Below are positions 660 through 8,901 of a stretch of 64,000 nt of DNA, piece by piece. Below the pieces are notes generated by a model. It saw nothing but the letters and a program-made list of their open reading frames with translations, had not been told where the DNA came from and did no database searches. The translations under genes and the position numbers were made by a program. Every line of letters starts with the position of its first letter. Position 1 is the stretch's first letter. The DNA comes from Rubrobacter sp. (GTDB taxonomy: Bacteria > Actinomycetota > Rubrobacteria > Rubrobacterales > Rubrobacteraceae). Location of the stretch: assembly GCA_035936475.1 (NCBI GenBank), contig DASYWA010000084.1, forward strand, positions 22,930 through 86,929. The letters are read 5' to 3'.

Positions 660-1963
660 AGGAGAGCAGGGAAGAAGGGGTAGGGACCGAAGTCGGGGCC
701 GAAGCGCGGGGCTTGCTCGTGGGCGCGGGAGAGCCGCGCCACATGGGGGAGTTGGGCCGCCTGGCGACGACGCTCGGGATGGAGGTCGTCGGCGTGCTCG
801 AGCAGGGCCGCAGGGACAACGCGGGCTACGTCGGCCGGGGCAAGCGCGAGGAGTTGCGCGAGCTCGTCGAAGAGACGGGCGCGGACTTCGTCGTGACGGA
901 CGACGAGCTTACGGCGTCCCAGGCCAGGGTGCTTGAGCGGGCGGCCGGCGCCGTCGTCGTCGACAGGACGGAGCTGATCATCCGCATCTTCGAGGTGCAC
1001 GCCGGGGACGCGGCGAGCAGCCTCGAGGTCGAGCTTGCGGACCTCCAGTACCGGCTGCCGAGGGTGAAGGGCCGCAACCCCGAGCTCAGCCGCCTGGGCG
1101 GCGGTCGCGGCGGCGCCGGGGGCGGCGCGAGGCGCGGCAGCGGCGAGCAGCAGCTCGAGTACGACCGCCGCGTCATCCGCGGGCGCATAGACACGATAAA
1201 CCGCAAGCTCGAGCGCGAGAAGACCGGCAGGGAGGTGCGCGGCGCGCGCCTGAGGGAAAGTTCCACCCCGACCGTGGCCCTCGTCGGCTACACCAACGCC
1301 GGCAAGACGACCATCCTCAACGCCCTGAGCGGCGCCGGGAGGTCCACGAAGGACAGGCTCTTCGAGACGCTCGAGACCACCACGCGCCTCGTCGAAGGCG
1401 GCGCCACCGCCAATGGCGCCGTTGGCGGTGGCGCCCACCCGGATTTCGTGGTCACCGACACGGTGGGCTTCATAAGGAAGCTGCCGACCCAGCTCGTCCA
1501 CTCCTTCGCCTCGACCCTCGAGGCTGCCAACCAAGCGGACGTCAGGGTCCTCTGCGCCGACGCCTCGAGCCCCGAGCTCGAAGACGAGATAGCCACCGTC
1601 AGTCGCACGCTCGCCGACGGCACCGGGGACGGATCGGGTGGACCGCCAACGATACTCTGCCTCAACAAGATGGACCTCGTCTCAGAAGAACGGGCCAAGG
1701 AGATAGAGAGGCTCTACCCGGAGGCCGTCCGGATCAGCGCCCTCACGGACGCCGGCCCGCTCCTCGAAGCCATCTACGGTGCGATCTCCTCTGGCCGGGA
1801 GCGGATGGAGGTCCTGATACCCCACGAGGACTACGGTGCAGCCAGCCGCCTCTACGGCCTCGCCGACATCCACGCCCGCCGCGCGACGGACGAGGGCCTC
1901 TGGATGGACGTCAGCCTCCCGCGCGCCGCCGCTGCCAGGTACGCCGCCTACAAAACCCCCTGA
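656..1963 (+). CDS. hflX: GTPase HflX
   Basis: GYTNAGKT, DTVGFIRKLP, NKMD motifs; LEVELA coiled segment; ATG 656 overlaps miaA TGA. Confidence 0.95.
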   Translation: MKESREEGVGTEVGAEARGLLVGAGEPRHMGELGRLATTLGMEVVGVLEQGRRDNAGYVGRGKREELRELVEETGADFVVTDDELTASQARVLERAAGAVVVDRTELIIRIFEVHAGDAASSLEVELADLQYRLPRVKGRNPELSRLGGGRGGAGGGARRGSGEQQLEYDRRVIRGRIDTINRKLEREKTGREVRGARLRESSTPTVALVGYTNAGKTTILNALSGAGRSTKDRLFETLETTTRLVEGGATANGAVGGGAHPDFVVTDTVGFIRKLPTQLVHSFASTLEAANQADVRVLCADASSPELEDEIATVSRTLADGTGDGSGGPPTILCLNKMDLVSEERAKEIERLYPEAVRISALTDAGPLLEAIYGAISSGRERMEVLIPHEDYGAASRLYGLADIHARRATDEGLWMDVSLPRAAAARYAAYKTP

Positions 1964-2889: not shown

Positions 2890-3096
2890 CTATCGCATAC
2901 CCTTTGGGCCACTGCTTCGGCCGCTGCCCAAGAAGTACACGTCTGCCCAAAACGTGGCGCCCATGGAACTAACAAGGTCGACCTGTTCTCTGGAGAGGGA
3001 CAAATTGTAGTCGTTCTCCGAATCGGCGTAGATCACGCACGCGAAGGTGACGAGGTGCTCATCAGCCAGCGCCCTTACCTTTTCGACGTATGGCAT
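2890..3096 (-). pseudogene. Small low-GC ORF, probably a 5'-truncated DUF4279-like protein
   Basis: C-terminal pattern NLSLSREQVDLVSSMGATFWADVY resembles DUF4279 C-termini (recognition only); frame is open upstream only to a TGA at ~3130. Confidence 0.4.
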
Positions 3097-3247
3097 TAGC
3101 CGTTCGATCTCGACCAGCGATTCGTTTTCTCAAGAACCGGTGAGTTGCGGAAGAAACGCCTATACCCTCCCTTTCTCTAGATTTTGTCCGCCTCTAAGCC
3201 TGTTTGAGAGTTGATCTGCTCAGGATCTGCCATAGTTGTGCAGGCTC

Positions 3248-4192
3248 CTATATCGGGAGGGTATTATACTGATATGCCTTGCTGGCCAGTTCCTCGGCGC
3301 GGCGGATGTAGCGCAGGGTGGTCTTGGGATCGGAGTGGCCGAGGAATTGCTGGATGACGAGGAGGGGCGCCTCGTTCACGGCCATGTTGGTGCCTACGGT
3401 GTGGCGGATGGAGTGCGGGCTTATGGGCTTGGTTATGCCGGCGGCGCGGACGTACTTTTTTACTATGTTCTGGACGGAGCGGGTCGTGAGGGGCTTGTCC
3501 TTGCCCACACGGGAGGTCAGGAGGGGCTTGCGGGCGTCCGTGTGGGAGTTGAGGGAGCGGCCTGAGAGGAGGACGTAGCGCTGGACGAGGCGCCAGAGGT
3601 CCGGTGAGATCGGGACGTTGCGGATCTTGTCTCCCTTGCCGAGCACGCGGAGCATGACCGCGTCGTTGCCGGTGTCCTTAAAATCGGAGAGCTTGAGCCC
3701 GACAACCTCGGCCTCGCGCAGGCCGCACCCGGCCATGACCGCGAGCAGGACGTAGTCGCGGTAGTTGTCCGAGCGGGCGGCGTTGAGCATGCGCTGGAGC
3801 TCGTCCTCGGTGAGCACGTTGTAGGCCGGGTCCTGGCGCACGCGCGGGCTCTTGGCGAAGAAGCGCAGGGCCTCCGGGTTGACGGTCGTCGCACCCGTCA
3901 TAAACGTGAAGATCAAAAACCTTCGGAGCACCGCGAGCTTCTTGGCCGCCGTCGCCGCAGCGTAGCTGCTTATCAGGTGCTCCCGGTACAGGGACACATC
4001 CTCCGCTGTCAACCCCGACAGGTCTTTCCCAAGCTCCCCCACCAGGTAGGCGACGAAGAGCCGGATCTCTGTATTATAGGTTTTTATAGTCTGGGGGCTG
4101 GTTAGGGTGCGGAGGTAGAGGGCGATTAGGCGGTCGGTCTCCGGGGAGGTCTTTGCGGGGAGGGCGGGGGCCGGGACCGGGAGGTCAGTCAT
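3248..4192 (-). CDS. Tyrosine recombinase (Xer/integrase family) with intact catalytic residues
   Basis: GLREAE (R), GKGDK (K), HSIRH (H-x-x-R), LGH, TTLRY (Y); N-terminal SAM-like domain; start overlaps apt stop (ATGACTGA). Confidence 0.93.
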   Translation of the reverse strand: MTDLPVPAPALPAKTSPETDRLIALYLRTLTSPQTIKTYNTEIRLFVAYLVGELGKDLSGLTAEDVSLYREHLISSYAAATAAKKLAVLRRFLIFTFMTGATTVNPEALRFFAKSPRVRQDPAYNVLTEDELQRMLNAARSDNYRDYVLLAVMAGCGLREAEVVGLKLSDFKDTGNDAVMLRVLGKGDKIRNVPISPDLWRLVQRYVLLSGRSLNSHTDARKPLLTSRVGKDKPLTTRSVQNIVKKYVRAAGITKPISPHSIRHTVGTNMAVNEAPLLVIQQFLGHSDPKTTLRYIRRAEELASKAYQYNTLPI

Positions 4193-4736
4193 CGGGGGTG
4201 GCGTAGGTTATCAGCGAGACGACCTCGTAGGGGGCGAGGCGGGAGCGGCCGTCTAGGTAGCCGAGCTCTATGAGGAAGGCGACGCCCGCGACCGTTCCGC
4301 CGGCGTTCTCGACGAGGTCGCACATGGCGCGGGCGGTGCCGCCGGTGGCGAGGAGGTCGTCGGCGACGAGGACGCGCGACCCCTCGCGGATGGAATCGGC
4401 GTGGGCCTCCAGGGTGTCGGTGCCGTACTCGAGGTCGTAGGTGGCGGAGATCGTCTTTCGGGGGAGCTTGTTCGGTTTGCGGGCGAGGACGAGACCCTTT
4501 TTTGCCCTGTAGGCCAGCGCGGTACCGAAGACGAAGCCGCGGGCCTCGGCCGAGAGGATGTGGTCGTAGCCGAGGTGCTCGGTGGCGGCGTGGAGGGCGT
4601 CCGTGGCGGCGTGGAGGGCGGGTCCGTCCTCTATTACGGGGGTTATGTCTTTGTAGGAGATGCCGGGTTTGGGGAAGTCTGGGACGGTGCGGATGCGGGA
4701 CCTGACCGTCTTCAGGGCGTCCTCGGGAGCGGGCAT
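4185..4736 (-). CDS. apt: Adenine phosphoribosyltransferase
   Basis: VPDFPKPGI.YKDITP, EARGF, LEYGTD, DDLLATGGT. Confidence 0.97.
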   Translation of the reverse strand: MPAPEDALKTVRSRIRTVPDFPKPGISYKDITPVIEDGPALHAATDALHAATEHLGYDHILSAEARGFVFGTALAYRAKKGLVLARKPNKLPRKTISATYDLEYGTDTLEAHADSIREGSRVLVADDLLATGGTARAMCDLVENAGGTVAGVAFLIELGYLDGRSRLAPYEVVSLITYATPDD

Positions 4737-4738
4737 CC

Positions 4739-5593
4739 TCAGGGGGCGAAGGAGTCTATCACGTTCGCCATCATCAGCTCCTTCATCCGGGAGTCGACGG
4801 AGGCGAGGTGGCGGGCCTTGTTCACGGCCTCCGCGACCCTTCCCTCGTCGCCGCTGCGCAGCTCGGGGTTTACCACCTGCTTAAAGAGGGCGGCCTCGCG
4901 GTCCACGGCGGCCATGATGCCGCGCAGGTGGCGGGGTTGGATCGAGTACTTCGCCATCTCGAGGGCCATGCGCGCGATCTCGGCGTCTCGCTGGGTGAGC
5001 TCGCCGGTGCGCCCGATCACGCCGACCGTCACGAGCTCGTCGACGAAGCGGCTGTCCGTCTCCAAAGTGTCGGCGAGCTCCTCGCGGGTGTAGGTCCTGT
5101 CCTCCAGCACGCGGGAGAGGTCGTTCGCCGAGTCGCCGCCGGTGGAGATACCGCCGCCGCCCTCGATGCGCTTCTTGATCACCTTGAGCGGCAGGTACTC
5201 TTTGTCCTGGAGGGTGAGGATGTACTTTAGGAGCTCGATGTCCTGGCCCGAGAAGAGCCGGTAGCCGCCGCGGGTGCGAGTCAGGTTGATCAGGCGCCGG
5301 CGCTCGAGGTACCGGATCTTGCTGACGGACAGCGTCGGGAACTCGGGCCTCAGACGCTCCACGACCTCGCCTATGGTGTAGCTGTCCTTGGACCCTCCCC
5401 TCCCCCGCATCCCCTGGCCCGACTCGGGGGCCGGTTCGGGGATCGGTTCGTGGGCCGCCAGGCCCCCCGTCGCCTCGTCTTCGGGGGGCACGTTGTCCCC
5501 CCGCGCGGGGATCGGGGCGTCCCCCATGGGATCGTTCCACCTTCTCTGGTTTACGTCTCCGCTCTCCATGGGGTTCGCTCCCATCCTCTCCAT
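4739..5593 (-). CDS. MerR-family transcriptional regulator (FtsR-like)
   Basis: YTIGEVV...VSKIRYLE...RTRGGYRLFS HTH; downstream of GarA-like FHA gene, as in the actinobacterial garA-ftsR cluster. Confidence 0.85.
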   Translation of the reverse strand: MERMGANPMESGDVNQRRWNDPMGDAPIPARGDNVPPEDEATGGLAAHEPIPEPAPESGQGMRGRGGSKDSYTIGEVVERLRPEFPTLSVSKIRYLERRRLINLTRTRGGYRLFSGQDIELLKYILTLQDKEYLPLKVIKKRIEGGGGISTGGDSANDLSRVLEDRTYTREELADTLETDSRFVDELVTVGVIGRTGELTQRDAEIARMALEMAKYSIQPRHLRGIMAAVDREAALFKQVVNPELRSGDEGRVAEAVNKARHLASVDSRMKELMMANVIDSFAP

Positions 5594-5641
5594 CGCGCTC
5601 GGTGCCGCGCACGCCGCCCCCGGGTCTTCCCGAGGCCCTCT

Positions 5642-6097
5642 TTAGGCGAGCACGAACCTGAACCGGTACTTTCCTACCTGTATCTCGTCCCCGTTGCGCA
5701 GGTCCACGGAGTCCACCCTTACCCTGTTGACGTAGGTGCCGTTGAGGCTGCCCACGTCCCGGATCAGGAACCCCCGCTCCCCGCGCAGGATCTCGGCGTG
5801 CTTGCGGGAAACGGTTACGTCGTCCAGGAAGATGCTGCTCTCCTGGCCGCGGCCGACGGTGACGACCTCATCGTCTATGTCGTGCATGCGCCGACCGGCC
5901 GTGCCCTCGACCTGATCCAGCTCGATCAGGGAGGCGACCCCCGTCTCCACGGCGGCGAGCGCGTGCCCCTCCGCCTCCTCGCCGAAGCTCGGCGCGAAGG
6001 AGACCGTGCTCTGGCCGGCGTCGAGCTTCATGCCGCACTCGGCGCAGAACCTCATCTTGGGCGAGATCTCGGCCGCGCAGTTCGGGCAGACCATCAC
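5642..6097 (-). CDS. Zinc-ribbon + FHA domain protein (GarA/OdhI-like)
   Basis: CPNC..CAEC; GR..ESSIFLDDVTVSRKHA; GSLNGTYVN; QVGKYRF. Confidence 0.9.
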   Translation of the reverse strand: MMVCPNCAAEISPKMRFCAECGMKLDAGQSTVSFAPSFGEEAEGHALAAVETGVASLIELDQVEGTAGRRMHDIDDEVVTVGRGQESSIFLDDVTVSRKHAEILRGERGFLIRDVGSLNGTYVNRVRVDSVDLRNGDEIQVGKYRFRFVLA

Positions 6098-6348
6098 CTC
6101 GCCCCCTCCTCCCCGACCAACACCCGCGCGAGCTCCTCGGCCGTCAAGGCGGCCAGGCCCCGCCCGGCGAGCTCTGCCCGGATCAGGTTCGCCCTGCCCC
6201 GCAGGAGCTCGTGCCGGTACGCCGCCAACCGCTCCTCCTCGTAGACGCGCGCCAGAAGCCCCCGGAGCTCGGGCTCGGGGAGGGCAGTGAGGTCATCGGC
6301 AGACTCCCAATCGAAGCCGCCGGACGGCGTTAGGCGCTGGTCAGACAC
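6094..6348 (-). CDS. rsiG: Single-domain RsiG-like (anti-sigma-WhiG) coiled-coil protein with degenerate c-di-GMP motif
   Basis: DLTALPEPELRGLL..EEER..YR..LL.GR..LIRAEL pattern of the RsiG family; TATACT 7 nt upstream of GTG. Confidence 0.7.
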   Translation of the reverse strand: MSDQRLTPSGGFDWESADDLTALPEPELRGLLARVYEEERLAAYRHELLRGRANLIRAELAGRGLAALTAEELARVLVGEEGAR

Positions 6349-6387
6349 AGGAGCTAGTATAGCGGAGTCTCAACCTGAAGCGCAATG

Positions 6388-8901
6388 TCAGCTTGAGGTT
6401 TCCGCTGCGGCCCCTTCTTCTATAAGGGAGCGGACGATCTCCACGTACTCGCCGGCGAGGGCGCGCGGGTCGCCGCCGTCTCCCGGCTCGGCGTAGACGT
6501 AGAACACGGGGTTGTCTGGGTCCGGGAGCATCAGCACCCACCCCCCGTCGACGCTCAGGCGCACGCCCTCGGTCAGGATCGCGTCCGGGTCGCCACCGAA
6601 CCTCTCGGCCAGGCCGCGCATCACGCGCCCCTTCGCCGTCCACGGGCACTCCAGGCGCTCGCGGATCACGCCGCCGAAGGAGTCGTCGTACTCCCGCCGC
6701 ACGGCCGACAGGGGCTCGGAGCGGAACGCCTCGAGGGCCCGGGCGAGGGTCATGAAGCAGTCGGGGGCCGGCAGGAACGAGGGGAAGATGTAGCGGCCGT
6801 CGGCCAAAGAGGCGAGGTCGGCGCGGGTGCCGGCGGCCTTTATGGCCAGGCTGCCGATGCCGGTGCGGCTGATCTCGACGGTGCCCCCGCCCTCCTCGGT
6901 GAGCCTCCTGTAGCCGCTGCTCAGGTTTATAGGGAAGACGGCCTTGCGGGGCCGGGTCGCCCGGATCAGGCACGCCAGCATCACGTCGTCGGGCACGAAG
7001 TTGCCCTCGTCGTCGACGAACCGGACCACTTCGGCCTCGGGTCCGACGACGGCCCCGAAGGCGGCCCCGACGGTCGGCACTATGCGCGCCACCCGGTCTA
7101 TGCTCTCCTCGAGGTCGCCCGCAGAACCGCTGCCCACGACGTTCGCGTTGGCGAAGCCCTCCATGACGACGGCCCCCACGCCCAGACGGGAGAAGACCCG
7201 GCTGGCGACGAGGCCGGCCACCCCGCCGTAGAAGTCCACGACTATGGTGGCGCCGGAGGTCTTGTCGCGGTCGACGACGCGCTCCAGGCGCTCGACGAAC
7301 TGCTCGACGACGCGCCCGGGGTAGATCAACTCGCCTATGTCCGCGCCGTGGGCCCTACGGTACTCCTCGCGCACGAACGCCTTCTCCACCGAGCGCTGGT
7401 CGCCCTCGGTCATGGGCGTCGCCTCCGAGGCGAAGAACAGTATCTCCACGTCGTCGGGGTCGGCGCCGGCCCGCACGTGCGCCCCGGCAGATGACCTCCC
7501 CGAGAGCACGTCGTGGCGCACGACGCCCGCGTGGGCGGCCCTGAGGTCCCTGATGTTTATCCCGGTCCCGAGCAGCGCCGCGGTCATCGCCCGCTTGGCG
7601 ACCTGGGCCGCGCGGGAGGAGTCGCGGCCCAACGTGACGACGGAGCCTGGGTCGAGGGTGGTGCCAAAAGAGGACGAGAGGCGCGTCACGAACTCTGGGG
7701 TCAGGTTCACGTTGAACTTGCCGGTGACGACGCCGCCCTTGAAGATCGTGCGCAGGCCCATCGTCTCGTAGATCAGGGAATGGGTGACGTTGGCGCCGGG
7801 CTCTATGGTCTTGTGCGGGTAGACCTTGACGTCCGGGGCTATGGTCGCCCCCTCGCCCACTATCACGTCGTCCCCTAAAGCGCTGCGCTCGAGTATCCTC
7901 GCCTTCGCCTGCACGTAGCAGTTGCGGCCGACGAGCGTGTCCTTTAGCTCGGCCCCCTCCCCGACGTAGGTCCCGTCGGCGACGACGCTGCGCTCGATGG
8001 AAGCCCCCGCCGAGACGACGACGTTGTCGGCTATGACGGAGTAGGGGCTTATCTTCGCCCCGGGGTCGATGCGGGCGTTCTCCCCGATCACGACCGGCCC
8101 CTCGAGCTCCTCGTCGGCCACCTGCGTCCGACGGCCCACGAAGATGTTCTCCCTAAGACGCGTACCAGGCGGCCTGACGTCCTTTACCCTGCCGTCGAGC
8201 ACGTCGCGCTGGGCGGAGGCGAACTGCTCGAGGGTGCCTATGTCCTCCCAGTAGTCCTCGGTGACGTAGCCGTACATCGGCCGCCCGACCTCCAAGAGCT
8301 TCGGGAAGAGCTCCTTGGAGAAGTCGTACTCGCCCTCCTCCGGTATCTCGTCCATGACGGAGGGCTCGAGCAGGTAGATGCCGGTGTTCACGGTGTCGGA
8401 GAAGACCTGCCCCCAAGCCGGCTTCTCCAGAAAGCGCGAGATCCTCCCGTCCTCCTCCAGGATGACGATGCCGAAGTCCAGCGGGTTCTCGACGCTCTTG
8501 AGGACCATCGTGGCCTCCGAGCCCTTCTCCTCGTGGAAGCGCAACAGGCGCGTGAGGTCGGCGTCGGTGAGGGCGTCGCCGCTGATGATGAGCAGGCGCT
8601 CGCCCTCGAGGCCCAGCTGCTTCTCGGCCATCTTGACCGAACCTGCGGTGCCGGCGGGCGCGTCCTCGACGGAGTATCCGATCTTGACGCCCCAGTCCGA
8701 CCCGTCGCCGAAGTAGTCCCGAATCTCCTCCGGCATGAACTGCAGCGTCACGGAGATGTCGTCGAAGCCGTGGCGCTTTAAGAGCCCGACTATGTGCTCC
8801 ATGCACGGCAGGTTGGCTATGGGGATCATGGGCTTGGGCTGGTCGCTGGTCAGCGGCCTCAGGCGCGTCCCCTGCCCCCCGGCCATGATGACGGCCTTCA
8901 T
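6388..8901 (-). CDS. Mannose-1-phosphate guanylyltransferase with hexapeptide repeats fused to a phosphomannomutase-like domain
   Basis: MAGGQGTRLRPLT..PKPM, GTAGSVK, EKP, YWEDIG; C-terminal PMM-like fold. Confidence 0.9.
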   Translation of the reverse strand: MKAVIMAGGQGTRLRPLTSDQPKPMIPIANLPCMEHIVGLLKRHGFDDISVTLQFMPEEIRDYFGDGSDWGVKIGYSVEDAPAGTAGSVKMAEKQLGLEGERLLIISGDALTDADLTRLLRFHEEKGSEATMVLKSVENPLDFGIVILEEDGRISRFLEKPAWGQVFSDTVNTGIYLLEPSVMDEIPEEGEYDFSKELFPKLLEVGRPMYGYVTEDYWEDIGTLEQFASAQRDVLDGRVKDVRPPGTRLRENIFVGRRTQVADEELEGPVVIGENARIDPGAKISPYSVIADNVVVSAGASIERSVVADGTYVGEGAELKDTLVGRNCYVQAKARILERSALGDDVIVGEGATIAPDVKVYPHKTIEPGANVTHSLIYETMGLRTIFKGGVVTGKFNVNLTPEFVTRLSSSFGTTLDPGSVVTLGRDSSRAAQVAKRAMTAALLGTGINIRDLRAAHAGVVRHDVLSGRSSAGAHVRAGADPDDVEILFFASEATPMTEGDQRSVEKAFVREEYRRAHGADIGELIYPGRVVEQFVERLERVVDRDKTSGATIVVDFYGGVAGLVASRVFSRLGVGAVVMEGFANANVVGSGSAGDLEESIDRVARIVPTVGAAFGAVVGPEAEVVRFVDDEGNFVPDDVMLACLIRATRPRKAVFPINLSSGYRRLTEEGGGTVEISRTGIGSLAIKAAGTRADLASLADGRYIFPSFLPAPDCFMTLARALEAFRSEPLSAVRREYDDSFGGVIRERLECPWTAKGRVMRGLAERFGGDPDAILTEGVRLSVDGGWVLMLPDPDNPVFYVYAEPGDGGDPRALAGEYVEIVRSLIEEGAAAETSS

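What the first reader, a model, noticed from the sequence alone, without database searches (positions are those of the whole stretch)
6094..6348. RsiG homologue predicted blind to c-di-GMP
The RsiG c-di-GMP motif is E-X3-S-X2-R-X3-Q-X3-D, and single-motif RsiGs that homodimerise and control WhiG/type IV pili are known from Rubrobacter. Here the aligned segment is E-RLA-A-YR-H-ELL-R-GRA-N-LIRAEL (checked in the DNA at ~6181-6243). Only E is kept: S>A, R>H, Q>R, D>N, while the hydrophobic coiled-coil positions remain. Possible roles (inference): c-di-GMP-independent anti-sigma, different ligand, or a dominant-negative partner that heterodimerises with a canonical RsiG. pilMNO, a plausible output, is in the same window.
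Basis: partly seen in the sequence, partly recalled or inferred. Interest (0 to 1): 0.65.

Follow-up and report, generated by a model that had tools for sequence, protein, structure and literature searches.

The report
Rubrobacter RsiG with rebuilt c-di-GMP pocket
This small gene is the genome's only copy of RsiG, the protein that normally needs the signal molecule c-di-GMP to hold back the sigma factor WhiG. In a whole clade of uncultured soil Rubrobacter its c-di-GMP-reading residues have been replaced while the rest is kept under selection, so the switch has probably lost or changed its input.

Summary
Window 6094-6348 (-) encodes an 84-aa single-motif RsiG (Pfam PF22802 47 bits; R. radiotolerans RsiG 7LQ2, E 1.5e-16). 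Of the motif E-x3-S-x2-R-x3-Q-x3-D only E survives (A43, H46, R50, N54).

- **Orthologue, not paralogue:** it is the only RsiG in a 98%-complete genome and sits in the same slot (NTP-transferase, rsiG, FHA/Zn-ribbon, ftsR, apt) as canonical Rubrobacteria rsiG.
- **Clade-wide:** all 8 species of a well-supported subclade, and about 110 metagenome proteins, carry the variant.
- **Not decay:** dN/dS is about 0.26, against 0.21 for canonical relatives. S>A, R47>E and Q>R are newly fixed, while only the two guanine-reading positions vary freely.
- **Partner and signal kept:** residues that contact WhiG are conserved. whiG, 9 GGDEF and 3 EAL domains, and WhiG-type promoters before pilin-like genes are present. 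WhiG itself changed at c-di-GMP contacts (V52A, K53R, K243N).

Best reading (about 50%): still a WhiG anti-sigma, but c-di-GMP-independent. Rivals are a remodelled c-di-GMP site, another ligand, or a new role. The heterodimer idea is refuted. I found no description of this in the papers searched. The scan earlier noted a different motif-less RsiG relative in another genome.

The parts
6094..6348 (-). rsiG: 84-aa single-motif RsiG orthologue with a variant motif. It is the only RsiG-family gene in the genome.
   Evidence: ORF; PF22802 47.1 bits; 7lq2_B E 1.5e-16; single copy; syntenic with canonical rsiG.
6187..6234 (-). Segment equivalent to the c-di-GMP motif: E39-x3-A43-x2-H46-(E47)-x2-R50-x3-N54.
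   Evidence: Gap-free alignment to Rr RsiG E59/S63/R66/Q70/D74.
6325..6330 (-). T7-P8 in the N-terminal arm. It is conserved in the variant clade (T 99/116, P 86/116) and absent from canonical Rubrobacteria RsiGs. It is a candidate phospho-acceptor (inference only).
   Evidence: Column counts.
6356..6361 (-). TATACT -10 box 7 nt upstream of the GTG start. This predicts a leaderless rsiG transcript. It is conserved across the class.
   Evidence: Upstream alignments of 36 genomes; sequence. The simple sigma-70 scan did not call it.
6373..6399 (-). Conserved 8-bp inverted repeat (ACCTCAAG-N11-CTTCAGGT) overlapping the -35-like TTGCGC (6380-6385). It is a possible operator, perhaps for the co-transcribed MerR-type FtsR (inference).
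   Evidence: Conserved in variant and canonical genomes.
5642..6097 (-). Zinc-ribbon + FHA-domain protein (OdhI/GarA-like FHA). Its start overlaps the rsiG stop by 4 nt, so the two are probably translationally coupled.
   Evidence: PF00498 73 bits, Zn_ribbon 28.9 bits; OdhI model 108 bits, below its cut-off; conserved neighbour in 83 loci.
4739..5593 (-). ftsR, a MerR-family cell-division regulator, third gene of the conserved cluster.
   Evidence: NF050798 FtsR 172.6 bits, cut-off 150; synteny.
6388..8901 (-). 837-aa nucleotidyl-transferase/phosphomutase-type gene, the conserved upstream neighbour used as a synteny anchor and tree marker.
   Evidence: ORF; 77-93% identical neighbour in nearly all rsiG loci.

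Best explanation
The gene is the orthologue of the Rubrobacter single-motif anti-sigma factor RsiG. It probably still forms the antiparallel coiled-coil homodimer and still sequesters the sigma-28-type factor WhiG, whose regulon here includes pilin-like genes. The c-di-GMP pocket formed between the two RsiG helices and WhiG has been rebuilt. S63>A removes the ribose contact. Q70>R and R67>E became fixed. The two guanine-specifying residues (R66, D74) are no longer constrained. On the WhiG side, V52A/K53R and loss of the basic residue at 243 changed the same pocket. The most likely consequence is that complex formation no longer depends on c-di-GMP read in the canonical way. The new charged pair may contact the sigma factor directly in place of the nucleotide, but that is inference. 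WhiG control in this clade would then be constitutive, set by stoichiometry, or governed by another input.

Shown here: homology, orthology, clade-wide conservation, purifying selection, site-specific relaxation, and presence of WhiG and c-di-GMP enzymes.
Inferred: loss of c-di-GMP dependence, retained WhiG binding, and the way the pocket is filled.
For: 1. Family and fold: PF22802 47 bits; 7LQ2 E 1.5e-16; helix 25-62 plus helix 70-78 in the model.
2. Orthology: the order NTP-transferase, rsiG, FHA, ftsR, apt is the same in variant and canonical genomes. There is only one RsiG in G000.
3. Clade: the tree built from flanking proteins puts G000 in an 8-species clade (SH-aLRT 100), and every member carries the variant motif. 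The sister 22-species clade is mostly ESRQD. 116 G000-like proteins show the same pattern.
4. Selection: pairwise NG86 dN/dS has a median of 0.26 in the variant clade and 0.21 in canonical relatives of the genus.
5. Site pattern: entropy at the R66 and D74 positions is 1.62 and 1.65 bits in the closely related variant set, against 0.36 and 0.21 in other Rubrobacteria. A43, E47 and R50 are newly fixed.
6. Experiment in the literature: R/D>A in the motifs abolishes c-di-GMP binding, WhiG co-purification and complementation (PMC7005675). R66 and D74 are the base-specifying contacts in Rr (PMC8325347).
7. Partner interface kept: the RsiG residues equivalent to Rr D39, K60, R72, R77 and E91 (D19, R40, R52, R57, E71) are conserved. 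WhiG R43, N47 and E240 are conserved.
8. WhiG pocket changed: V52A and K53R are fixed only in this clade. Position 243 is N/G/C in all 12 such cases, all in genomes with a degenerate RsiG, and never in the 50 genomes with a canonical RsiG.
9. The system is present: WhiG scores 209 bits, over its cut-off, and aligns to Rr WhiG 7lq4_A at E 1.8e-55. There are 9 GGDEF and 3 EAL domains. A perfect TAAA-N16-GCCGATAA precedes a GspH/N-methyl pilin-like gene.
Against: - No binding data exist, and everything about ligand and partner is inferred from sequence.
- Arginine is a common guanine-reading and stacking residue in c-di-GMP receptors. The invariant R50 could therefore have taken over the role of R66. 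About half of the clade still has R at 46, and about a quarter still has D at 54.
- WhiG keeps G57, R58, T237 and R239, which also touch c-di-GMP.
- In S. venezuelae a c-di-GMP-blind RsiG cannot hold WhiG at all. Retained WhiG binding therefore requires compensating changes that I have not demonstrated.
- The RsiG/WhiG co-variation rests on only 2-3 phylogenetically independent contrasts (sign test p 0.25-0.5).
- WhiG position 243 is also non-basic (Q/M/I/H) in some genomes with a canonical RsiG.
- dN/dS comes from 73 codons with dS up to 1.4, so it is noisy.
Confidence: 0.5

Rival explanations
1. It is still a c-di-GMP-armed anti-sigma, with a remodelled pocket. R50 (at the Q70 position) now stacks on and reads the guanine. 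WhiG residues G57, R58, T237 and R239 supply the remaining contacts. Affinity or stoichiometry is altered rather than lost.
For: - R50 is nearly invariant (106/116), and E39 is kept.
- Arginine-guanine recognition is typical of c-di-GMP receptors (general knowledge).
- R remains at position 46 in 59/116 members and D at position 54 in 28/116.
- Four of the six WhiG c-di-GMP contacts are kept.
- GGDEF/EAL genes are as numerous as in canonical relatives.
- The intermediate states EGRRD and EARRD in G006, G008 and G024 keep R66 and D74 alongside Q>R.
Against: - The two base-specifying positions vary freely (R/H/L/Y and N/D/A/G/H/C/V/E). A conserved guanine-reading site would not be expected to do this.
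- The ribose-binding Ser is lost.
- The WhiG lysines that bind guanine O6 are changed (K53R, K243N/G/C).
- The R/D>A mutant of S. venezuelae RsiG is blind to c-di-GMP.
Confidence: 0.2
2. The pocket has been retuned to a different small ligand, for example an adenine-containing cyclic dinucleotide or another nucleotide. RsiG would remain a ligand-armed anti-sigma with a new input.
For: - D>N and R>H/L remove guanine-specific contacts. Asn is a classical adenine-reading residue (general knowledge).
- Several positions around the pocket are newly fixed: A43, E47, R50 and A53.
Against: - The putative specificity positions 46 and 54 are the most variable in the helix, which argues against any specific base readout.
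- I did not examine any candidate ligand-synthesis gene.
Confidence: 0.1
3. It no longer acts on WhiG. It has been recruited to another role within its conserved operon with the FHA/zinc-ribbon protein and FtsR, for example as a coiled-coil adaptor in Ser/Thr-phosphorylation or cell-division signalling.
For: - rsiG overlaps the FHA gene by 4 nt, and the order rsiG, FHA, ftsR is conserved across the class.
- The clade-specific T7-P8 motif could be a phospho-site.
- A c-di-GMP-blind S. venezuelae RsiG cannot bind WhiG.
Against: - The operon arrangement is shared by canonical RsiGs that are proven WhiG partners in the related R. radiotolerans (PMC8325347), so it is not specific to the variant.
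- All five RsiG residues that make polar contacts to WhiG, and their WhiG partners R43, N47 and E240, are conserved.
- WhiG is retained in every variant-clade genome of at least 90% completeness.
Confidence: 0.1
4. It is simple decay: a dying gene whose motif is eroding.
For: - Four of the five motif residues are lost.
- Motif erosion recurs in neighbouring lineages, with at least 8 state changes on the tree.
- G045 and G047 show an out-of-frame N-terminal half of rsiG and a frameshifted whiG.
Against: - The frame is intact in all 8 clade species and in about 110 metagenome proteins.
- dN/dS is about 0.26, like canonical copies.
- Most columns are more conserved than in canonical relatives, and new residues are fixed.
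- The promoter and start context are conserved.
Confidence: 0.03

Closest known systems
Rubrobacter radiotolerans RsiG, the single-motif homodimeric anti-sigma of WhiG (PDB 7LQ2/7LQ3/7LQ4; Schumacher et al. 2021, PMC8325347)
   Same: - Same length (84 aa) and about 50% identity over residues 12-82.
- Same predicted long helix plus short C-terminal helix.
- Glycine-rich linkers are present.
- The WhiG-contact residues D39, K60, R72, R77 and E91 are conserved.
- Same gene neighbourhood in the class.
- A WhiG partner and WhiG-type pilin promoters are present.
   Different: - Motif ESRQD becomes EAHRN.
- R67>E and I73>A are fixed, and a T-P motif has been added in the N-terminal arm.
- The partner WhiG carries V52A, K53R and K243N.
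- c-di-GMP dependence is therefore doubtful.
Streptomyces venezuelae RsiG, the twin-motif monomer (PDB 6PFJ/6PFV; Gallagher et al. 2020, PMC7005675), and its engineered R71A/D79A/R169A/D177A variant
   Same: - Homologous helix: 6pfj_T at E 2.2e-4.
- The natural substitutions here hit the same two base-specifying positions that were mutated in the engineered c-di-GMP-blind protein.
   Different: - One motif and a homodimer instead of two motifs in one chain.
- The engineered blind variant is non-functional, whereas this natural variant is conserved under purifying selection, which implies compensation or a new mode.
Ligand-independent anti-sigma-28 factors such as FlgM (general knowledge)
   Same: If the best explanation holds, it would work like these: a small helical protein binding sigma-2 and sigma-4 of a FliA/WhiG-type sigma without a nucleotide cofactor.
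   Different: There is no sequence or fold relationship. FlgM is controlled by secretion, and no such route is evident here.

Membership tests
RsiG (Pfam PF22802; single-motif class of Rubrobacteria/Thermoleophilia) | Significant sequence homology to characterised RsiG | tested here: met
   PF22802 47.1 bits against a cut-off of 27; 7lq2_B E 1.5e-16 and 6pfj_T E 2.2e-4.
RsiG (single-motif class) | One long coiled-coil-forming helix flanked by Gly-rich linkers and short N- and C-terminal helices, about 80-120 aa | tested here: met
   AlphaFold2 model: helix 25-62 and helix 70-78, pLDDT 86-94 over the long helix. GG at 10-11 and G62/G64 are present.
RsiG (single-motif class) | E(X)3S(X)2R(X)3[Q/H](X)3D c-di-GMP-binding signature | tested here: not met
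   The motif reads E39/A43/H46/R50/N54. By contrast, 130 of 173 family-wide matched stretches and most Rubrobacteria genomes are canonical.
RsiG (single-motif class) | Orthologous genomic position with bona fide rsiG of the class | tested here: met
   The order NTP-transferase, rsiG, FHA, ftsR, apt is conserved in variant and canonical loci.
RsiG (single-motif class) | Co-occurrence with a WhiG (WhiG2-type) sigma factor | tested here: met
   TIGR02479 209.5 bits, over its cut-off, at G000:C73; 7lq4_A WhiG E 1.8e-55. WhiG was found in all 15 genus genomes of at least 90% completeness.
RsiG (single-motif class) | Conservation of residues that contact WhiG sigma-2 and sigma-4 (Rr D39, K60, R72, R77, E91) | tested here: met
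   D19, R40, R52, R57 and E71 are conserved in 116 clade members. The contacts are listed in PMC8325347.
RsiG (single-motif class) | Homodimerisation into an antiparallel coiled coil | not testable with these tools
   Only single-chain prediction is available. Heptad hydrophobic positions are conserved.
RsiG (single-motif class) | Binds c-di-GMP, and c-di-GMP-dependent sequestration of WhiG | not testable with these tools
   This needs FP, DRaCALA, ITC and pull-down assays. Sequence predicts loss of the canonical readout.

The most novel reading that the evidence does not exclude
In this uncultured soil Rubrobacter clade the RsiG-WhiG switch has swapped its input from c-di-GMP to Ser/Thr phosphorylation. 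The clade-specific T7-P8 in the N-terminal arm, which wraps WhiG sigma-2 in the Rr structure, would be phosphorylated and read by the FHA-domain protein whose gene overlaps rsiG by 4 nt. The rebuilt pocket (A43, E47, R50) would let RsiG hold WhiG without a nucleotide.
Probability: 0.1. Interest if true: 0.8.

Novelty: new variant of a known kind. Interest (0 to 1): 0.55.

Why it matters
RsiG-(c-di-GMP)2-WhiG is the textbook case of a second messenger acting as the 'glue' between an anti-sigma and its sigma. Published surveys state that the motif is highly conserved, and they infer that every WhiG2 regulon is therefore under c-di-GMP control (PMC8325347; bioRxiv 10.64898/2026.01.14.699351).

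A whole clade keeps RsiG, WhiG and many c-di-GMP enzymes but has rewritten the binding pocket on both proteins. That is a natural experiment in how a ligand-dependent protein interface can become ligand-independent or change ligand. It gives a short list of substitutions to test by swapping them into the crystallised R. radiotolerans protein: S63A, R67E, Q70R, and WhiG V52A, K53R and K243G/N. It also warns against inferring c-di-GMP control of pili from the mere presence of rsiG.

Tried and rejected
- **Second, canonical RsiG in the genome (heterodimer idea).** A PF22802 scan at E<=10 and a protein scan found only this gene, plus an 18-bit sub-threshold hit inside a 439-aa ORF at window 1145-1234. 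Rejected.
- **NCBIfam.** It has no model that matches the protein.
- **Loss of c-di-GMP signalling as the explanation.** There are 9 GGDEF and 3 EAL domains in G000 and 2-20 GGDEF domains across the variant clade, no fewer than in canonical relatives. Rejected.
- **WhiG-type promoter in front of pilMNO in the window.** None was found within 3 mismatches.
- **Genome-wide promoter scan at 2 mismatches.** It is mostly noise (212 hits against about 125 in shuffles), so only hits with 0-1 mismatch were used.
- **Phylogenetically corrected test of RsiG/WhiG co-variation.** Only 2-3 independent contrasts exist, so it cannot reach significance. I report it as suggestive only.
- **Sigma-70 consensus scan upstream of rsiG.** It found nothing. 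The conserved TATACT and leaderless layout came from comparative alignment.
- **Complex or dimer structure prediction.** Not possible with the single-chain tool. A fold search of a single-helix model was judged uninformative and not run.
- **Cultured representative of the variant clade.** None was found. All named hits are MAGs from soil or soil crust, and R. marinus and R. taiwanensis are canonical.

Full report
**1. What is at the coordinates**

Window 6094-6348 (minus strand, GTG start) is an 84-codon ORF. It matches Pfam PF22802 'RsiG-like' end to end at 47.1 bits against a cut-off of 27. Its best solved relative is the single-motif RsiG of Rubrobacter radiotolerans (7lq2_B, also 84 aa, E 1.5e-16), followed by S. 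venezuelae RsiG (6pfj_T, E 2.2e-4). No NCBIfam model matches it.

The alignment to Rr RsiG is gap-free. It places the published motif residues E59, S63, R66, Q70 and D74 (PMC8325347) on E39, A43, H46, R50 and N54. An AlphaFold2 model built from 19 homologues gives one long helix (25-62, pLDDT about 90) and a short C-terminal helix (70-78). This is the architecture described for Rr RsiG.

**2. Orthologue, not a spare paralogue**

The window lies in a 3.16-Mb, 98%-complete assembly. A PF22802 scan at E<=10 and a protein scan both find this gene only, apart from an 18-bit sub-threshold hit. The gene order is 837-aa nucleotidyl-transferase, rsiG, zinc-ribbon/FHA protein, FtsR (MerR family, NF050798 172 bits), then apt. 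The same order is found around rsiG in essentially every genome of the genus and class, whether its motif is canonical or not. The stop of rsiG overlaps the FHA start by 4 nt. This refutes the idea of a dominant-negative partner for a canonical RsiG.

**3. A clade-wide state**

I searched the GTDB class that contains the genome. It has 104 species genomes, one family and 17 genera. Record titles name members as Rubrobacter or Rubrobacteraceae MAGs. RsiG was found in 85 genomes. The motif is ESR[Q/H]D in almost all genera.

A maximum-likelihood tree of the flanking proteins, with RsiG and WhiG excluded, recovers the window's genus as monophyletic. Within it is an 8-species clade (SH-aLRT 100): G000, G021, G015, G011, G023, G002, G012 and G007. 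All eight have E-[A/E]-[H/R]-[R/L]-[N/D/A]. The 22-species sister clade is mostly ESRQD.

A search of 5.8 billion proteins returned 169 hits. Of the 120 listed, about 100 belong to this variant group, with EARRN, EAHRD, EALRN and EAHRN the commonest states. Among 150 family-wide 50%-identity representatives, 130 of 173 matched stretches are canonical. The exceptions cluster among the Rubrobacter-like small proteins.

Motif erosion has also happened independently nearby: R66>L in a sister genus, EDLRA in another genus, and E[G/A]RRD in three species of the canonical sister clade. This gives at least 8 state changes on the tree.

**4. Selection**

Pairwise Nei-Gojobori dN/dS over codons 10-82 has a median of 0.26 in the variant clade (28 pairs, range 0.12-0.69). 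Among canonical members of the genus it is 0.21.

Per-column entropies were computed for 116 proteins grouped by at least 66% identity outside the motif columns. Almost every position is more conserved than among the other Rubrobacteria, as expected for closer relatives. The R66 and D74 positions are the exceptions: 1.62 and 1.65 bits, against 0.36 and 0.21. Four other positions have been fixed in a new state: S63>A (98/116), R67>E (108/116), Q70>R (106/116) and I73>A. So the gene is maintained, the pocket has been re-specified, and only the two guanine-reading residues have been released from constraint.

True decay looks different. Two sister genomes, G045 and G047, have an out-of-frame N-terminal half of rsiG and a frameshifted whiG. 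These are MAGs, so sequencing error cannot be excluded.

**5. What the replaced residues do**

In the Rr complex, Ser and Glu hydrogen-bond ribose O2', Gln stacks on guanine, R66 reads O6/N7 of the central guanines, and D74 reads the Watson-Crick face of the splayed guanines. In S. venezuelae, changing only the Arg and Asp of both motifs to Ala abolishes c-di-GMP binding, WhiG co-purification and complementation. The natural protein has lost both of these residues plus Ser and Gln. Canonical recognition is therefore very unlikely.

**6. The partner and the signal are still there**

- **WhiG is present.** A FliA/WhiG-family sigma scores 209 bits, over its cut-off, on another contig. It aligns to Rr WhiG (7lq4_A) at E 1.8e-55.
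- **The protein-protein interface is kept.** The RsiG residues that make the named polar contacts to WhiG (Rr D39, K60, R72, R77, E91) are conserved as D19, R40, R52, R57 and E71. Their WhiG counterparts R43, N47 and E240 are conserved too.
- **The ligand side of WhiG has changed.** V52>A and K53>R are fixed only in the variant clade. K243, which bonds guanine O6 in Rr, is N, G or C here. G/N/C at 243 occurs in 12 genomes, all with a degenerate RsiG, and in none of the 50 genomes with a canonical RsiG. This rests on only 2-3 independent evolutionary contrasts and is not statistically significant. Some canonical genomes also carry Q, M, I or H at 243. I therefore treat it as suggestive.
- **c-di-GMP turnover genes are plentiful.** G000 has 9 GGDEF and 3 EAL domains, and the variant clade has 2-20 GGDEF domains per genome.
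- **WhiG-type promoters are present.** Using the published consensus (TAAA / GCCGATAA), a perfect match precedes a GspH/N-methyl pilin-like gene, and a one-mismatch site precedes another N-methyl pilin fragment. pilMNO in the window has none.

**7. Most likely mechanism and rivals**

- **Best explanation (about 0.5).** RsiG still dimerises and still binds WhiG, but the nucleotide 'glue' has been replaced or made dispensable by the new A43/E47/R50 surface together with WhiG A52/R53/N243. The order of events seen in relatives is S>A/G and Q>R first (the EGRRD and EARRD states), with drift at positions 66 and 74 afterwards. This fits a gateway substitution followed by relaxation.
- **Remodelled c-di-GMP site (about 0.2).** R50 takes over guanine reading, and WhiG G57, R58, T237 and R239 are retained.
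- **Another ligand (about 0.1).** This is weakened by the variability of the would-be specificity positions.
- **A new role in the FHA/FtsR operon (about 0.1).** This is weakened by the conserved WhiG interface and by the same operon in canonical species.
- **Decay (about 0.03).**
- **Clade-specific T7-P8.** This motif sits in the N-terminal arm (T in 99/116; absent from canonical RsiGs), next to a translationally coupled FHA gene. It suggests, speculatively, phosphorylation as the new input.

**8. Novelty**

The 2021 survey found five single-motif RsiGs, all canonical. The 2026 survey states that the motif is highly conserved and that WhiG2 regulons can be read as c-di-GMP regulons. Full-text searches for RsiG/WhiG papers returned nothing on motif-less Rubrobacter RsiGs.

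This scan has noted a different, twin-motif-derived motif-less RsiG relative at a flagellar cluster in another genome (e1-5266461). I did not check that note. I classify the present case as a new variant of a known kind.

Noticed in passing
window 6349-6399 (-), and the equivalent region in loci L003-L149: The rsiG upstream region is conserved across the whole class. It has a TTGCGC/TTGCAC -35-like box, an 18-nt spacer, and TATACT 6-7 nt before the start codon, which predicts a leaderless mRNA. An 8-bp inverted repeat (ACCTSAAG-N11-CTTCAGGT) overlaps the -35. This may be an operator, perhaps for the co-transcribed MerR-type FtsR.
   Followed up: partly
window 4185-6348 (-): rsiG, the zinc-ribbon/FHA (OdhI-like) gene, ftsR and apt form a tight same-strand cluster that is conserved in canonical and variant Rubrobacteria. 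The rsiG stop and FHA start overlap by 4 nt. I did not find a link between RsiG and FHA/FtsR signalling in the RsiG papers I read.
   Followed up: partly
L071 (G047) 2915-3160, L072 (G045) 2922-3167; whiG loci L062 and L061: In two sister genomes of the genus, the N-terminal half of RsiG reads as an out-of-frame Arg/Pro/Ser-rich stretch, which looks like a compensated double frameshift. Their whiG genes are split by frameshifts at different positions. This may be decay of the whole switch, or MAG sequencing error.
   Followed up: partly
L087, L109, L112, L113 (sister genus g24) and L144 (G050): The same motif has eroded independently elsewhere: R66>L (ESLQD, ERLED, EGLQD) and EDLRA. In each case WhiG position 243 is Gly, and in three of them the WhiG G57 position is Cys.
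   Followed up: partly
G000 contigs C179:2168 (-), C40:1090 (+), C99:2787 (-), outside the window: Perfect or one-mismatch sigma-28/WhiG-type promoters (TAAA-N16-GCCGATAA) lie upstream of a GspH/N-methyl minor-pilin-like gene, a prepilin N-methyl fragment at a contig end, and a secreted NuiA (nuclease-inhibitor-like) protein.
   Followed up: partly
window 1145-1234 (+): There is a weak PF22802 match (17.9 bits, below the cut-off) inside a 439-aa ORF. It is most likely coiled-coil noise.
   Followed up: no
complete genomes G082, G084, G085, G077, G078, G023: whiG lies 36-58 kb from rsiG on the same chromosome in all complete genomes of the class that I examined. In G023 a GGDEF gene sits about 8 kb from whiG. 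This is loose but conserved linkage.
   Followed up: no
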